NCBI RefSeq assembly: GCF_009931435.1
Contig: NZ_CP043414.1
DNA from: Escherichia coli
Lineage (GTDB): Bacteria; Pseudomonadota; Gammaproteobacteria; Enterobacterales; Enterobacteriaceae
Strand: one strand, 5' to 3'
DNA length: 64,000 nt
Shown piece after piece: positions 19,001-23,679 of this stretch. Position 1 is the stretch's first letter. Each line of letters begins with the position of its first letter. A program made the position numbers.

Positions 19001-22000
19001 GTGCGGTTTTACCTTCAAACGGCACATTCAGGGTGCGCCGGACAAAACTTGCTCCACCGTCACAGGCTACCAGCCACTGGGCTTTGACCGTTTCCCGCTG
19101 CCCTTCTGCCGTTTTCAGATACAAGGTCACTTCGTCATCTTGCTGGCTGAAGGCCTCCAGCTCGCGGGAAAACAGGCAGCGCACATTCGGAAACCGCGAC
19201 AACCCTTCCAGCATCACCGCATCGACCTGCGGCTGAATAAAGGCGTTACGACGCGGCCAGCCAAATTCATCGGTCATTGGCTGAATATCAGCAAAACAGC
19301 GGCCTTTTGGGGTAAGAAAACGCATCGCATGCCACGGCGTAGTGTGCGGCAGAACATTATCGACAAGGCCAACCGACTGCATGGTGCGCAGCGCCTCGTC
19401 ATCAATTCCAATCGCGCGTGGATAGTCGATCAACTTATCGAGTTTCTCCACCACCAGCACGTCAATGCCCATCTGGCCGAGATAGTTCGCCATCATCAGC
19501 CCGACCGGACCGGCACCAGCGATCGCCACCTGAACGCAATGGTTAACAGCAGGCTGGATGTCAGGGTGTTGTATTGCCATTTCAGTACCTCACGACTCGG
19601 ACAAAATGCCGTTGCGCGCACAGTTCTACGCAACTTATTTTGTTAAAAACATGTAAATGATTTTTTATTGTGCGCTCAGTATAGGAAGGGTGTTTTCGGC
19701 TACAATCAAAACATGCCTGAGTGTGCACCAAGTGCACAACGTTGTTTTAACTATAGAAATGTCAATTAATATGCAGAAAGATGAGCAGACGGAATACAAA
19801 ACCGTGCGCGGCTTAACCCGCGGTCTAATGTTATTAAATATGTTAAATAAACTCGATGGCGGTGCCAGCGTCGGGCTGCTGGCGGAGCTCAGCGGCCTGC
19901 ATCGCACCACTGTGCGGCGACTGCTGGAAACGCTGCAGGAAGAGGGATATGTCCGGCGCAGTACCTCCGATGACAGTTTTCGTCTGACCATCAAAGTGCG
20001 GCAATTAAGCGAAGGATTTCGTGACGAACAATGGATTTCTGCACTGGCAGCCCCGCTGCTGGGCGATCTGTTGCGCGAAGTGGTATGGCCGACAGATGTG
20101 TCCACGCTGGATGTTGATGCAATGGTGGTACGCGAAACCACCCACCGTTTCAGCCGTTTATCTTTTCACCGGGCAATGGTCGGACGGCGTTTACCGCTCC
20201 TGAAAACCGCCTCGGGCCTGACCTGGCTGGCCTTTTGCCCGGAACAAGAACGCAAGGAGTTAATCGAAATGTTAGCCGCCCGTCCCGGTGATGACTATCA
20301 GCTGGCACGGGAGCCGTTAAAGCTGGAAGCCATTCTGGCGCGCGCACGCAAAGAGGGTTACGGACAGAACTACCGTGGCTGGGATCAGGAAGAGAAGATC
20401 GCCTCCATTGCCGTGCCCCTACGCAGTGAACAACGGGTGATTGGCTGTCTGAATCTGGTGTATATGGCAAGCGCAATGACCATCGAACAGGCAGCGGAAA
20501 AGCATCTTCCGGCGCTACAACGGGTAGCAAAACAGATCGAAGAAGGGGTTGAATCGCAGGCTATTCTGGTGGCCGGACGGCGAAGCGGCGTGCATTTACG
20601 CTAGTTGCGCCAATGTGTAATTTGGCCCATTCTCATCGTTATTCGCCCATTTGCCCACATGCACAGTACGGGCTGCACGCTACGCTAATGCCATCAATAC
20701 TGTGATGTGGAGCAAATCATGAAAATTACTCAAATTCGTAATGCCACCCAAATTATCCAATACGCTGGCAAAACATTTCTTATTGACCCGTTACTCGCGC
20801 CTAAAGGAAGTTATCCGGGTTTTGCCGGAACGGCACGCGCAGAAATCCGCAATCCAACGGTAGAATTACCGTGCGATTTAACAACGTTACTCAACGTTGA
20901 CGCCCTAATAGTGACCCATTTGCATGAAGATCACTGGGACGAAACAGCCTCCCGCGTCGTCCCCAAAGATAAACGGATTTATGTGCAAAATGAGCAAGAT
21001 GCTGAATCACTGCATAAACAAGGATTTACGCATCTTACCGTACTTGCCGACGAGACTAAATTTGGCGATATTACTCTGCATAAAACGACAGGGCAGCACG
21101 GCTCCGATCACACCTATGCAGACCCGGCTATGGCGAAGCGTTTAGGCGCAGCCTGCGGCGTTGTTTTCCAGCACCCGACAGAGAAAACGCTCTATCTGGC
21201 TGGCGATACCCTCTGGCGTGATGACGTCGAGGCTACAATGCTAACTTTCCAACCAGAAGTGGTGGTGTTGAATGCCGGATTTGCGCATGTTCTGGGGCAT
21301 GGCGCGATAATTATGGGAGCTGAAGATATTCTCAAAACACATTTTACCCTGCCAGAAGCGCAAATTGTCGCGACACATATGGAGGCCGTAAACCACTGTT
21401 TGCTGACGCGTGATGCGCTCAAGGAATACGCCAGAGATAATCAAATTATCGAATTTGTGAACGTACCAGAAGATGGTGAAACGTTGACATTCTAATTCGG
21501 AGATAAAGAGTGTTATGCGCCCGCTAACTGTTGCCATTATCGCCGTTGCCGGTTTTAGTCCTTTTCACCTTTCCGTACCGTTTATCGTGTTTAGCGAAAA
21601 AATGGCGGAGAAAAAACGCTTTCATGTAATTATCTGCGCTGAAAAGCCGGGAAACGTGGACTCTGCCGATGGGTTTTCCGTAACCGCCACCCATGACTAT
21701 ACGGCAGTCATCCAGGCGGATATTGTGATAATTCCTTACTGGGGAACAATTACACAAAAACCGCCACAAAAACTGCTGGAAGCCTTAACGACCGCACGAG
21801 ATAACGGGGCACAGATTGTCGGGCTTTGCCTGGGCACGTTTGTGCTCGGCTATGCAGGTTTACTGAACAATAAGCGTGCTGCCACGCACTGGGAGTTCGA
21901 GCGTGAATTTCAGGCACGTTTTCCACAAACACATCTGGATATTAACGCGTTGTATGTAGACGATGATGGCATTATTACCTCTGCCGGTACTGCCGCGGCG

Positions 22001-23679
22001 CTGGATTGCTGTTTGTATATTGTTCGGCAACATTTTGGCAGCGACTATGCTAACCATATTGCCCGACGGATGGTCGTACCGCCATATCGCACCGGCGGTC
22101 AGGCGCAGTTTATAGAGCAACCGGTGCCGAAAAATACCCATGATGAACGCATTAACCTCCTGCTGGATTACCTGCGGCAAAACATTGCGCAACAGCATGA
22201 TCTCGACTCGCTGGCTCAGCGAGTAATGATGAGTCGCCGCACACTAACCCGTCATTTTATGAAAGCGACCGGTTCGAGTATCGCCGAATGGCTCATCACT
22301 GAACGCTTACGCCGTAGCCAGGAACTGTTGGGATCCAGTCAGTTGCCCGTTGAGCGGATAGCGGCTGAGGTGGGTTTTCTCTCACCTGTGACCTGGCGTC
22401 AGCATTTTAAATCTCACTTCGGCGTCAGCCCCGCAGAATGGCGCAAAACCTTTCGTGGTATGGCATGATAGCGCCCGGAAGAAAGTCAATTCAGGGTGGT
22501 GAATGTGAAACCAGTAACGCTATACGATGTCGCGGAGTATGCCGGTGTCTCTTATCAGACCGTTTCCCGCGTGGTGAATCAGGCCAGCCACGTTTCAGCG
22601 AAAACGCGGGAAAAAGTGGAAGCGGCGATGGCGGAGCTAAATTACATTCCCAACCGCGTAGCACAACAGTTAGCGGGCAAACAGTCGTTGCTGATTGGCG
22701 TTGCCACCTCCAGTCTGGCCCTGCACGCACCGTCGCAAATTGTCGCGGCGATTAAATCTCGCGCCGATCAACTGGGTGCCAGCGTGGTGGTGTCGATGGT
22801 AGAAAGAAGCGGTGTCGAAGCCTGTAAAGCGGCAGTACACAATCTTCTCGCGCAACGCGTAAGTGGTCTGATCATCAACTATCCGCTGGATGACCAGGAT
22901 GCCATTGCTGTGGAGGCAGCCTGCGCTAATGTTCCGGCGCTATTTCTTGATGTCTCTGACCAGACTCCCATCAACAGTATTATTTTTTCCCATGAAGACG
23001 GTACACGGCTGGGCGTAGAGCATTTGGTCGCATTGGGTCACCAGCAAATCGCGCTGTTAGCGGGCCCATTAAGTTCTGTCTCGGCGCGTCTGCGTCTGGC
23101 GGGCTGGCATAAATATCTTAAACACAATCAAATTCAACCGATAGCGGAACGGGAAGGCGACTGGAGCGCCATGTCCGGTTTTCATCAAACCATGCAGATG
23201 CTGAATGAGGGCATCATTCCTACTGCGATGCTGGTTGCCAACGATCAGATGGCGCTGGGTGCAATGCGCGCCATTACCGAGTTCGGGCTGCGCGTCGGCG
23301 CGGATATCTCGGTAGTGGGATACGACGATACCGAAGACAGCTCGTGTTATATCCCGCCATTAACGACCATCAAACAGGATTTTCGCCTGCTTGGGCAAAC
23401 CAGCGTGGACCGCTTGCTGCAACTCTCTCAGGGCCAGGCAGTGAAGGGCAATCAGCTGTTGCCCGTCTCACTGGTGAAACGAAAAACCACCCTGCCACCC
23501 AATACGCAAACCGCTTCTCCCCAGGCGTTGGCTGATTCCTTAATGCAGCTGGCGCGACAAATTTCCCGACTGGAAAGCGAGCAGTGAGCGCAACGCAATT
23601 AATGTGAGTCAGCTCACTCATTAGGCACCCCAGGCTTTACACCTGATGTGTCCGACTCGTATGTTGTATGAAATTGTGA

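What the first reader, a model, noticed from the sequence alone, without database searches (positions are those of the whole stretch)
20707..22468. MBL-fold hydrolase paired with a GlxA-type (DJ-1/PfpI + AraC) regulator between the mhp and lac loci
The hydrolase carries the HxHxDH zinc motif (THLHEDH) and has the size (~260 aa) of small-molecule MBL hydrolases such as lactonases and glyoxalase II. The adjacent regulator fuses a sensor-like amidase-fold domain to an AraC DNA-binding domain. The pair resembles a self-contained sense-and-degrade module for a small electrophile, lactone or amide, sitting between two catabolic operons whose regulators flank it.
Basis: partly seen in the sequence, partly recalled or inferred. 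Interest (0 to 1): 0.45.

Follow-up and report, generated by a model that had tools for sequence, protein, structure and literature searches.

The report
E. coli isothiocyanate hydrolase and its regulator
The two genes are the E. coli copy (O-island 19: z0443 and ovrA) of the known bacterial SaxA/SaxC module, which destroys the mustard-oil toxins (isothiocyanates) of cabbage-family plants; the kind is known, but the link suggests what signal the EHEC virulence regulator OvrA may sense.

Summary
Two intact co-directional genes lie between mhpR and lacI: a 258-aa MBL-fold protein (true start ATG 20719, not GTG 20707) and a 317-aa DJ-1/PfpI + AraC regulator.

The MBL protein is not a lactonase, glyoxalase II or RNase Z. 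It matches the crystallised isothiocyanate hydrolase SaxA of Pectobacterium (PDB 6BRM) over its full length (E 2.7e-87, 54% identity) and keeps every metal ligand. It is 51% identical to P. syringae SaxA.

The regulator is 44% identical to the GlxA-type regulator that sits beside P. syringae saxA (saxC).

The pair is conserved as a unit in 59 of 75 assessable species. A direct-repeat operator-like element (window 20622-20660) occurs upstream of the hydrolase only where the regulator is present.

The locus is already named in EHEC O157:H7. It is O-island 19, where z0442 is ovrA, a reported LEE activator, and z0443 is listed as "unknown function". In the papers I could search, none links OI-19 to the sax system.

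Verdict: a new member of a known kind.

By-product: the classical lacI promoter lies inside the last 34 nt of ovrA, and K-12 keeps only that remnant.

The parts
20622..20660 (+). Operator-like element TTGGCCCATTCTCATCGTTATTCGCCCATTTGCCCACAT. It holds repeated TGRCCC-type half-sites about 21 bp apart plus a promoter-proximal GCCCAC. It is the predicted binding site of the adjacent regulator and abuts the -35 position.
   Evidence: It scores 16/19 against the consensus TTGGCCCGATnnCATCGnnnnnTGnCC, and is the only match in the 64-kb window (chance expectation 0.01). The same element lies 90-150 nt upstream of the hydrolase start in 53 of 59 species that have the regulator and in 0 of 16 that lack it. 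It is also present upstream of P. syringae saxA (17/19) and of the IncY-plasmid copy. Its function is inferred.
20681..20686 (+). Predicted -10 hexamer TACGCT of the hydrolase promoter. No -35 consensus is present, which suggests an activator-dependent promoter.
   Evidence: The hexamer is conserved in position 20 nt after the operator: TACGAT in Citrobacter and TATACT in Pectobacterium, Serratia and Erwinia. The simple sigma-70 scan finds no full consensus promoter on the + strand. Inferred only.
20709..20712 (+). Ribosome-binding site GGAG, 6 nt before ATG 20719.
   Evidence: Read directly from the sequence.
20719..21495 (+). SaxA-family MBL-fold hydrolase, a predicted isothiocyanate hydrolase of 258 aa and the orthologue of EDL933 z0443. 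It has no signal peptide, so it is cytoplasmic.
   Evidence: PDB 6BRM SaxA matches at E 2.7e-87 over residues 1-258 with 54% identity; 3RPC matches at 2.4e-72. It is 51% identical to P. syringae SaxA. The metal ligands H67, H69, D71, H72, H127, D163 and H220 are invariant.
21515..22468 (+). ovrA (z0442 orthologue), a SaxC-type GlxA-family regulator of 317 aa. It has an N-terminal DJ-1/PfpI domain carrying Cys105 (VGLCLG) and Cys165-Cys166 (DCCL), and a C-terminal AraC HTH_18 domain.
   Evidence: Pfam domains. Newer RefSeq records label the 97.8%-identical gene 'ovrA: OI-19-encoded virulence regulator OvrA'. It is 44% identical over its full length to the P. syringae regulator divergent from saxA.
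22441..22469 (+). The classical lacI promoter: -35 GCGCAA at 22441-22446, a 17-nt spacer, and -10 CATGAT at 22464-22469. It lies inside the last codons of ovrA and overlaps the ovrA stop codon (TGA, 22466-22468).
   Evidence: The sequence is identical to the mhpR-lacI intergenic region of K-12-type E. coli. Naming these hexamers as the lacI promoter rests on established knowledge (Calos 1978; the lacIq mutation changes GCGCAA to GTGCAA), recalled from memory.
20598..22434 (.). The segment absent from K-12-type E. coli, equal to O-island 19 (reported as 1834 bp).
   Evidence: Alignment of the window to strain E62 gives matching blocks 20500-20597 and 22435-22600. The OI-19 size comes from PMC8565820.

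Best explanation
The pair is the E. coli chromosomal version of the SaxA/SaxC isothiocyanate (ITC) detoxification module, and is the same locus as O-island 19 of EHEC O157:H7 (z0443 plus ovrA).

The first gene encodes a cytoplasmic, metal-dependent (two Zn2+ ions as I recall the SaxA structure paper, which I could not read) MBL-fold isothiocyanate hydrolase. It activates water to convert R-N=C=S into the harmless amine R-NH2 plus carbonyl sulfide.

The second gene, 19 nt downstream on the same strand, encodes the module's own activator (OvrA, equivalent to SaxC). I infer that it binds a direct-repeat operator (20622-20660) abutting the -35 position of an activator-dependent promoter, and so drives transcription of hydrolase and regulator together.

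The likely inducers are isothiocyanates from dietary or forage crucifers. Sensing may use the thiol chemistry of the DJ-1-like domain: the invariant Cys105, and a Cys165-Cys166 pair specific to this subfamily.

What is shown: family membership, an intact metal site, conservation of the gene pair, and co-occurrence of the cis-element with the regulator. What is inferred: enzymatic activity of this particular protein, operator function, ITC as the inducer, and Cys-based sensing.
For: Hydrolase:
- Full-length match to crystallised SaxA (6BRM): E 2.7e-87, 54% identity. No other functionally defined family scores better than E about 0.007.
- All MBL metal ligands are invariant.
- It is 51% identical to the P. 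syringae-group protein that UniRef names 'Aliphatic isothiocyanate resistance protein SaxA'.
- The literature states that SaxA hydrolyses ITCs to an amine plus carbonyl sulfide. saxA is widespread in Enterobacterales in five clusters, as divergent as 45% identity, and all clusters keep the activity (PMC7036374). A saxA plasmid made laboratory E. coli able to degrade PEITC (PMC12710311).

Pair:
- A full-length GlxA-type regulator is adjacent in 59 of 75 assessable species loci. In 48 it lies downstream on the same strand, and in 11 it is divergent upstream, as in Pseudomonas.
- The pair sits in unrelated contexts in Citrobacter, Enterobacter and Yersinia.
- In P. syringae the layout is regulator, SaxA, isochorismatase, which matches saxC-saxA-saxB.

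Operator:
- The element is present in 53 of 59 loci with the regulator and in 0 of 16 without it (Fisher p = 9e-12; not corrected for phylogeny). Shuffled controls do not reach these scores.
- It occurs once in the 64-kb window.

Sensor:
- Cys105 and Cys165 are invariant in 62 of 62 regulators, and Cys166 in 61 of 62.
- Paralogous GlxA-type regulators keep the elbow Cys but have Leu-Gly or Leu-Ser in place of Cys-Cys.
- The closest solved DJ-1 domain is isocyanide hydratase, whose catalytic Cys aligns with Cys105.
Against: - No activity, induction or binding data exist for this protein pair on ITCs. Everything beyond family membership is inference.
- I could not read the paper that defines the SaxA active site and the five clusters (van den Bosch 2018). 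Substrate-pocket residues and cluster membership are therefore untested.
- The only published function of OvrA is activation of LEE1/ler, through a footprint (GACATTTAATGATAATG) that bears no resemblance to the conserved operator. The best operator score in the 600 nt upstream of ler is 11/19, which is shuffle level.
- In P. viridiflava, saxA was only mildly induced by ITC (log2 fold change about 0.5, at a late time point) and saxC was not induced (PMC12903958).
- The elbow Cys is a general feature of GlxA-type regulators, so it is not specific evidence for ITC sensing.
- The operator consensus was derived from a subset of the same loci, and the species are not phylogenetically independent.
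Confidence: 0.66

Rival explanations
1. OvrA is primarily a virulence regulator of the LEE pathogenicity island, as published. On this view z0443 is a functionally unrelated or dispensable passenger gene of a horizontally acquired O-island.
For: Reviews of Liu et al. 2020 report that OvrA binds the LEE1 promoter, activates ler, and promotes adherence and mouse colonisation. They also report that deleting z0443 had no effect on virulence (PMC8565820 and PMC10877973). The footprint sequence is present upstream of ler, overlapping the TTGACA -35 hexamer.
Against: The same two-gene unit, with the same operator, is conserved in dozens of genera that have no LEE, including Vibrio, Aeromonas, Pseudomonas and Pectobacterium. 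It is also found in E. coli from sources not usually linked to EHEC, such as dog, horse, frog and a pig ETEC strain, though I did not check these genomes for LEE. LEE control can therefore only be a secondary, lineage-specific recruitment. The absence of a virulence phenotype for z0443 is what a detoxification enzyme would show in assays run without ITC. Synteny with lacI-lacZ in Citrobacter, at equal divergence, argues that the segment is ancestral and was lost from most E. coli, not acquired by O157.
Confidence: 0.12
2. The hydrolase acts on a different small molecule, such as a lactone, thioester, isocyanate, carbodiimide or other heterocumulene. In gut enterobacteria the regulator would then sense that compound, and ITC hydrolysis would be only a side activity of the family.
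For: Homologues at about 50% identity occur without the regulator in nitrifiers, Burkholderia, Chitinophaga and Veillonella (3RPC), where exposure to ITCs is not obvious. Only a handful of family members have been assayed. Database annotations are generic ('MBL fold metallo-hydrolase', 'UlaG').
Against: The only demonstrated activity in this family is ITC hydrolysis, and it is reported to be preserved across all five enterobacterial clusters at identities as low as 45% (PMC7036374). The E. coli protein lies within that range relative to both assayed lineages. There is no detectable similarity to glyoxalase II, AHL lactonase or RNase Z families.
Confidence: 0.15
3. The pair is a decaying remnant in E. 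coli with no current function, since more than 90% of strains have lost it.
For: Only 435 of 5426 complete genomes keep it. Truncated variants of the hydrolase exist in databases (P0002 at 222 aa, and partial entries).
Against: Both ORFs are intact, with all catalytic and DNA-binding motifs, in the window and across two alleles that differ by about 2% at the DNA level. The review reports OI-19 in all 143 O157:H7 strains it examined. ovrA deletion has phenotypes, so the regulator is expressed and active.
Confidence: 0.05

Closest known systems
SaxA isothiocyanate hydrolase (Pectobacterium carotovorum, PDB 6BRM; P. syringae SaxA)
   Same: Same length and full-length alignment: 54% identity to 6BRM and 51% to P. 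syringae SaxA. All MBL metal ligands are retained. It is paired with the same type of regulator and the same upstream operator-like element.
   Different: It is chromosomal and sits between mhpR and lacI. It has no signal peptide, whereas the Pseudomonas proteins carry one. No saxB (isochorismatase) gene lies next to it. Activity has not been assayed, and its cluster (CL1-CL5) is undetermined.
SaxC, the regulator next to saxA in P. syringae
   Same: Same DJ-1_PfpI + HTH_18 architecture. It is 44% identical over the full length (138 of 315) and has the same GLCLG elbow and DCCL motif. It lies adjacent to the hydrolase, with the same operator in front of the hydrolase gene.
   Different: Gene order differs. 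In E. coli the regulator lies downstream in the same operon, whereas in Pseudomonas it is divergent upstream. The biochemical role of SaxC and its ligand are uncharacterised in the literature I could read.
O-island 19 of EHEC O157:H7 EDL933 (z0442 = ovrA, z0443)
   Same: It is the same locus. The DNA is 97.8% identical, the flanks are the same, and the insert size matches (1834 bp). RefSeq now labels the regulator ovrA.
   Different: The window carries a different allele (100% identical to the human commensal-type strain 2017-02-2CC). The EHEC literature describes z0443 as of unknown function and OvrA as a LEE activator with no known signal. It makes no link to SaxA/SaxC or to isothiocyanates in the papers I could search.
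Isocyanide hydratase InhA (DJ-1 superfamily; PDB 3NON, 6NI5)
   Same: It is the closest solved relative of the regulator's N-terminal domain (E 7e-13). The catalytic Cys101 aligns with Cys105. From memory, it acts by Cys attack on an electrophilic N=C carbon.
   Different: InhA is a stand-alone enzyme with no DNA-binding domain. The regulator has Cys-Cys where InhA has Phe-Ala on the following helix. Catalysis by the regulator is neither shown nor expected.
FtrA, GbdR and AdpA (other GlxA-type AraC regulators)
   Same: Same two-domain architecture. The best NCBIfam hit is FtrA at 324 bits, and the AdpA DNA-binding domain matches at E 4e-23.
   Different: The FtrA score is below the equivalog cut-off (324 versus 425). 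Paralogous GlxA regulators lack the Cys165-Cys166 pair and are not linked to a SaxA gene.

Membership tests
SaxA-type isothiocyanate hydrolase (MBL fold) | Full-length sequence homology to an experimentally characterised SaxA | tested here: met
   6BRM matches at E 2.7e-87 over residues 1-258 of 258, with 54% identity. Identity to P. syringae SaxA is 51%.
SaxA-type isothiocyanate hydrolase (MBL fold) | Complete MBL metal-binding set (HxHxDH, a distal His, a bridging Asp and a C-terminal His) | tested here: met
   H67, H69, D71, H72, H127, D163 and H220 are invariant in the alignment with 6BRM, 3RPC and six enterobacterial homologues.
SaxA-type isothiocyanate hydrolase (MBL fold) | Placement in one of the five published clusters CL1-CL5 | not tested
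   The representative accessions are listed in PMC7036374, but the sequences and the defining paper were not available.
SaxA-type isothiocyanate hydrolase (MBL fold) | Hydrolysis of R-NCS to R-NH2 plus carbonyl sulfide, and protection of the cell from ITCs | not testable with these tools
   This needs an enzyme assay and growth tests.
SaxC / OvrA subfamily of GlxA-type AraC regulators | DJ-1/PfpI-like N-terminal domain fused to an AraC HTH_18 domain | tested here: met
   Pfam PF01965 (7e-12) and PF12833 (3e-19).
SaxC / OvrA subfamily of GlxA-type AraC regulators | Encoded next to a saxA gene and orthologous to the regulator beside P. syringae saxA | tested here: met
   The regulator is adjacent in 59 of 75 species loci. 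It is 44% identical over its full length to the P. syringae regulator.
SaxC / OvrA subfamily of GlxA-type AraC regulators | Identity with ovrA (z0442) of O-island 19 | tested here: met
   The DNA is 97.8% identical to EDL933 and other O157:H7 genomes at the same mhpR-lacI position. Newer RefSeq records carry the label ovrA.
SaxC / OvrA subfamily of GlxA-type AraC regulators | Responds to isothiocyanate and activates saxA | not testable with these tools
   Only indirect support is available: the operator co-occurs with the regulator, and the subfamily has a specific Cys-Cys pair.
FtrA (NCBIfam NF006902 equivalog) | Score above the curated cut-off | tested here: not met
   324 bits against a cut-off of 425.
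   No such family appears among the Pfam, NCBIfam or PDB hits. After SaxA and 3RPC, the best PDB hits are NAPE-PLD and UPF0173 at E about 0.007-0.01.

The most novel reading that the evidence does not exclude
OvrA is a covalent isothiocyanate sensor. ITCs from dietary or forage crucifers would form dithiocarbamate adducts on Cys105 and/or the subfamily-specific Cys165-Cys166 pair of its DJ-1-like domain. That would switch on the detoxifying hydrolase and, in EHEC and EPEC lineages that retain O-island 19, also feed into LEE1/ler expression. Consumption of brassica by the host would then directly tune attaching-and-effacing virulence. Because no terminator separates ovrA from lacI, induction might also raise LacI by read-through.
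Probability: 0.2. Interest if true: 0.75.

Novelty: new member of a known kind. Interest (0 to 1): 0.45.

Why it matters
- It gives a concrete, testable function to z0443, an EHEC O-island gene listed as "unknown". It also gives a candidate ligand class, isothiocyanates, to OvrA, a virulence regulator whose signal is not stated in the reviews I could read. ITCs are abundant in human diets and in cattle forage (from my own knowledge), and are already studied as anti-EHEC agents.
- It predicts that about 8% of E. coli, including the O157:H7, O55:H7 and O145:H28 lineages, can enzymatically destroy ITCs while K-12-type strains cannot. That bears on food-preservation uses of allyl-ITC and on niche competition in the gut.
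- It supplies a conserved operator sequence for the whole SaxC regulator family, which no paper I could search describes.
- As a by-product, it shows that one of the most widely used promoters in molecular biology, the lacI promoter, is the fossil 3' end of a deleted regulator gene.

Tried and rejected
- **Lactonase, glyoxalase II, beta-lactamase or RNase Z readings of the MBL protein.** Rejected, because no such family appears in the Pfam, NCBIfam or PDB searches.
- **FtrA equivalog for the regulator.** Rejected, because the score is below the cut-off.
- **The defining SaxA papers** (van den Bosch 2018 and Welte 2016). Neither is held; Fan 2011 has no PMC id in the reference list I checked, so I did not request it. 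Pocket residues and cluster assignment could therefore not be checked.
- **Literature linking OvrA or z0443 to isothiocyanates, or describing the origin of the lacI promoter.** None was found in the searchable library. This is weak negative evidence, because subscription papers are missing from it.
- **A SaxC-type operator in the LEE1 promoter.** None was found; the best score is 11/19, equal to shuffled sequence. The reverse complement of the LEE1 footprint matches the window operator core at only 10 of 17 positions (my own by-eye alignment, no tool run). I judged that match not significant.
- **Simple sigma-70 and terminator scan of 20500-22700.** It found nothing above chance on the + strand. 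It also misses the weak lacI promoter, so it carries little weight.
- **Structure prediction and fold search.** Not run. A 54%-identical crystal structure already answers the fold question, and the tools do not give coordinates for measuring Cys-Cys distances.
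Full report
**1. What is there**

The window is E. coli chromosome. The queried stretch (window 20500-22600) is 100% identical to strain 2017-02-2CC.

The gene order on the + strand is as follows:
- mhpR, ending at 20604.
- A 114-nt spacer.
- An MBL-fold ORF.
- A 19-nt gap.
- A DJ-1/PfpI + AraC ORF (21515-22468).
- A 27-nt gap.
- lacI (GTG at 22496), followed by lacZYA.

The divergent mhpABCDF operon lies on the other side of mhpR. The hydrolase ORF starts at GTG 20707, but the true start is ATG 20719. RefSeq uses that start, a GGAG lies 6 nt upstream, and every homologue, including the crystallised one, begins MK(I/L)TQIRNAT. 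Pfam gives Lactamase_B_2 for the first protein and DJ-1_PfpI + HTH_18 for the second.

**2. The hydrolase is a SaxA-family isothiocyanate hydrolase**

A sequence search of all PDB chains gives two strong full-length hits. One is 6BRM, 'metal-dependent isothiocyanate hydrolase SaxA' (E 2.7e-87, 54% identity). The other is 3RPC, an uncharacterised Veillonella protein (E 2.4e-72, 46% identity). Everything else scores E of about 0.007 or worse.

In an alignment with both structures and six enterobacterial homologues, 65 positions are invariant. These include the whole metal-binding set: H67, H69, D71, H72, H127, D163 and H220. The protein is also 51% identical to the P. syringae-group protein that UniRef names 'Aliphatic isothiocyanate resistance protein SaxA'.

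According to van den Bosch et al. (PMC7036374):
- SaxA activates one water molecule and converts R-N=C=S to R-NH2 plus carbonyl sulfide.
- saxA is widespread in Enterobacterales, in five clusters.
- Clusters as divergent as 45% identity all retain the activity.

A saxA plasmid transferred into laboratory E. coli conferred PEITC degradation (PMC12710311). The E. coli chromosomal protein lies within that divergence range. No lactonase, glyoxalase II or RNase Z family is detectable. Membership of the family is well supported, but activity of this particular member is inferred.

**3. The regulator is the SaxC-type partner, and the two genes are one conserved unit**

Exact-protein look-ups show the same pair, hydrolase followed by a DJ-1_PfpI/HTH_18 protein, in completely different neighbourhoods in Citrobacter rodentium, Enterobacter sp. 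638 and Yersinia frederiksenii.

A scan of one genome per species returned 80 loci. Of the 75 with enough flank to judge, 59 have a full-length homologue of the regulator next to the hydrolase:
- In 48 it lies immediately downstream on the same strand (Enterobacterales, Vibrio, Aeromonas, Marinomonas, Geomonas).
- In 11 it is divergent upstream (Pseudomonas, Stutzerimonas, Massilia, Microvirga).

Identities of the two proteins fall together, roughly 78/78, 65/67, 57/57 and 52/44%. In the P. syringae group the layout is regulator (divergent), SaxA, isochorismatase. This matches the saxC-saxA-saxB genes described for that species (the gene order is from my memory of Fan et al. 2011). That regulator is 44% identical to the E. 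coli protein over its full length.

**4. A conserved operator-like element**

Aligning the regions upstream of the hydrolase genes revealed a shared motif, TTGGCCCGATnnCATCGnnnnnTGnCC, followed by GCCAC.

- In the window it is TTGGCCCATTCTCATCGTTATTCGCCCATTTGCCCACAT (20622-20660). This is the only match in 64 kb, with a chance expectation of 0.01.
- Scoring the 260 nt upstream of each hydrolase gene, 53 of 59 loci with the regulator reach at least 15 of 19 positions. None of the 16 loci without it does (Fisher p = 9e-12). Shuffled controls average 11.
- The element keeps a fixed orientation and lies about 90-150 nt from the hydrolase start codon. This holds in Pseudomonas too, once the N-terminal signal peptide of its SaxA is taken into account.
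- Twenty nucleotides after the element lies a positionally conserved -10-like hexamer: TACGCT in the window (20681-20686), TACGAT in Citrobacter and TATACT elsewhere. There is no -35 consensus.

This geometry suggests an activator site abutting -35, as in many AraC-family promoters. The caveats are that the consensus was built from some of the same loci and that the species are not independent.

**5. Sensor-domain features**

Across 62 regulators adjacent to hydrolase genes, the nucleophile-elbow Cys (VGLC105LG) is invariant. So are His18, His125-Trp126 and Cys165; Cys166 is conserved in 61 of 62. Paralogous GlxA-type regulators found in the same loci keep the elbow Cys but carry Leu-Gly, Leu-Ser or Leu-Met (one has Ala-Leu and also lacks the elbow Cys) where the SaxC/OvrA subfamily has Cys-Cys. 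The elbow Cys is therefore a family-wide trait, whereas the Cys-Cys pair is specific to this subfamily.

The closest solved DJ-1 domain is isocyanide hydratase, whose catalytic Cys aligns with Cys105. The Cys-Cys pair falls on the helix that follows the conserved A-G-T/I turn. Since ITCs react readily with thiols, thiol-based sensing is an attractive hypothesis, but it is untested.

**6. The locus already has a name**

Newer RefSeq annotations label the regulator 'ovrA: OI-19-encoded virulence regulator OvrA'. The reviews (PMC8565820 and PMC10877973) state the following:
- O-island 19 of EDL933 is 1834 bp with two ORFs.
- z0442 (ovrA) activates LEE1/ler by binding GACATTTAATGATAATG, and promotes adherence and colonisation.

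I found no paper in the searchable library that connects OI-19 with SaxA, SaxC or isothiocyanates.

The published LEE1 footprint is present upstream of ler, where it overlaps a TTGACA hexamer. However, the conserved operator is absent from the 600 nt upstream of ler: the best score is 11/19, equal to shuffled sequence. This discrepancy remains unexplained. Given how widely the pair is distributed in bacteria that have no LEE, LEE control can only be a secondary recruitment.

**7. Evolution**

The pair is present in 435 of 5426 complete E. coli genomes. It is always chromosomal, single-copy and at this site. The carriers include O157:H7, O55:H7 and O145:H28, as well as isolates from dog, horse, pig, chicken, frog and humans.

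In Citrobacter rodentium the order is hydrolase, regulator, lacI, lacZ, with the same tight regulator-lacI junction. Between E. coli and Citrobacter the four proteins are about equally diverged: hydrolase 77-80%, regulator 73-80%, LacI 78-84% and LacZ 76-81%. The block is therefore old, and the 'O-island' is better read as an ancestral segment deleted from most E. coli. K-12-type genomes lack 20598-22434.

**8. By-product: the lacI promoter**

What K-12-type strains retain upstream of lacI is the last 34 nt of ovrA. This remnant contains the classical lacI promoter: -35 GCGCAA at 22441-22446 and -10 CATGAT at 22464-22469, with the -10 overlapping the ovrA stop codon. Naming these hexamers rests on established knowledge, recalled from memory. 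Some strains carry a different deletion that leaves a 99-bp ovrA pseudogene next to yaiL. No terminator-like structure separates ovrA from lacI, so read-through into lacI is possible in strains that keep the pair.

**9. Verdict**

The finding is real, and its general logic of sensing and degrading an electrophile holds. The specific chemistry is isothiocyanate hydrolysis by a SaxA/SaxC module, which is a known kind, and the locus is already catalogued as OI-19. Three things appear to be new:
- The functional assignment of z0443.
- The inference that OvrA's native job is to control this hydrolase through a conserved operator, probably in response to ITCs.
- The origin of the lacI promoter.

All three are testable with simple experiments.

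Noticed in passing
window 22435-22495, compared with L002 (strain E62, K-12-type junction): The classical lacI promoter (-35 GCGCAA, -10 CATGAT) lies inside the last 34 nt of the ovrA coding sequence, and the -10 overlaps the ovrA stop codon. K-12-type E. coli keep only this remnant between mhpR and lacI. The textbook lacI promoter is therefore the fossil 3' end of a deleted regulator gene. I found no paper saying so in the searchable library.
   Followed up: partly
L003 4001-4099 (strain EC67): This strain carries a second, independent deletion type. A 99-bp 3' remnant of the GlxA/ovrA gene, annotated as a pseudogene, sits directly between yaiL and lacI. The whole mhp cluster, the hydrolase and most of ovrA are missing.
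   Followed up: no
L090 4001-6192 (IncY plasmid pTET-GZEC065); A paralogous module is carried on plasmids. Its hydrolase is 63% identical and its GlxA-type regulator 58% identical, with the same GLCLG and DCC motifs and an operator-like element scoring 15/19. An 'ester cyclase' gene follows. In all, 128 Escherichia plasmid records (E. coli and at least one E. fergusonii) hold a homologue at 80% identity or less; the one I inspected is an IncY plasmid.
   Followed up: partly
L076 3884-4783 and L091 4001-4882: Pseudomonas SaxA homologues carry an N-terminal signal peptide of about 35-40 residues, so they are probably periplasmic. The enterobacterial proteins, including the E. coli one, have none, so the toxin is presumably hydrolysed in different compartments.
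   Followed up: no
L093, about 185-201 nt upstream of ler (O157:H7 strain SS17): The published OvrA footprint GACATTTAATGATAATG overlaps a TTGACA hexamer upstream of ler. It bears no resemblance to the conserved SaxC-type operator, and no operator-like site occurs within 600 nt of ler.
   Followed up: yes
L010 5743-6498 (- strand), and likewise L012-L015: In several Citrobacter species a 251-aa gene that looks like a methyltransferase (my reading of its translation; no domain search run) is inserted between the regulator and lacI. The sequence just upstream of lacI still resembles the E. coli lacI promoter region (GCGCAAA ... GGCATCATAGCGCG).
   Followed up: no
L091 1725-2687: In P. syringae a second GlxA-type regulator lies next to saxC. 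It lacks both the GxCxG elbow and the Cys-Cys pair, which makes it a useful natural contrast to the SaxC/OvrA subfamily.
   Followed up: partly
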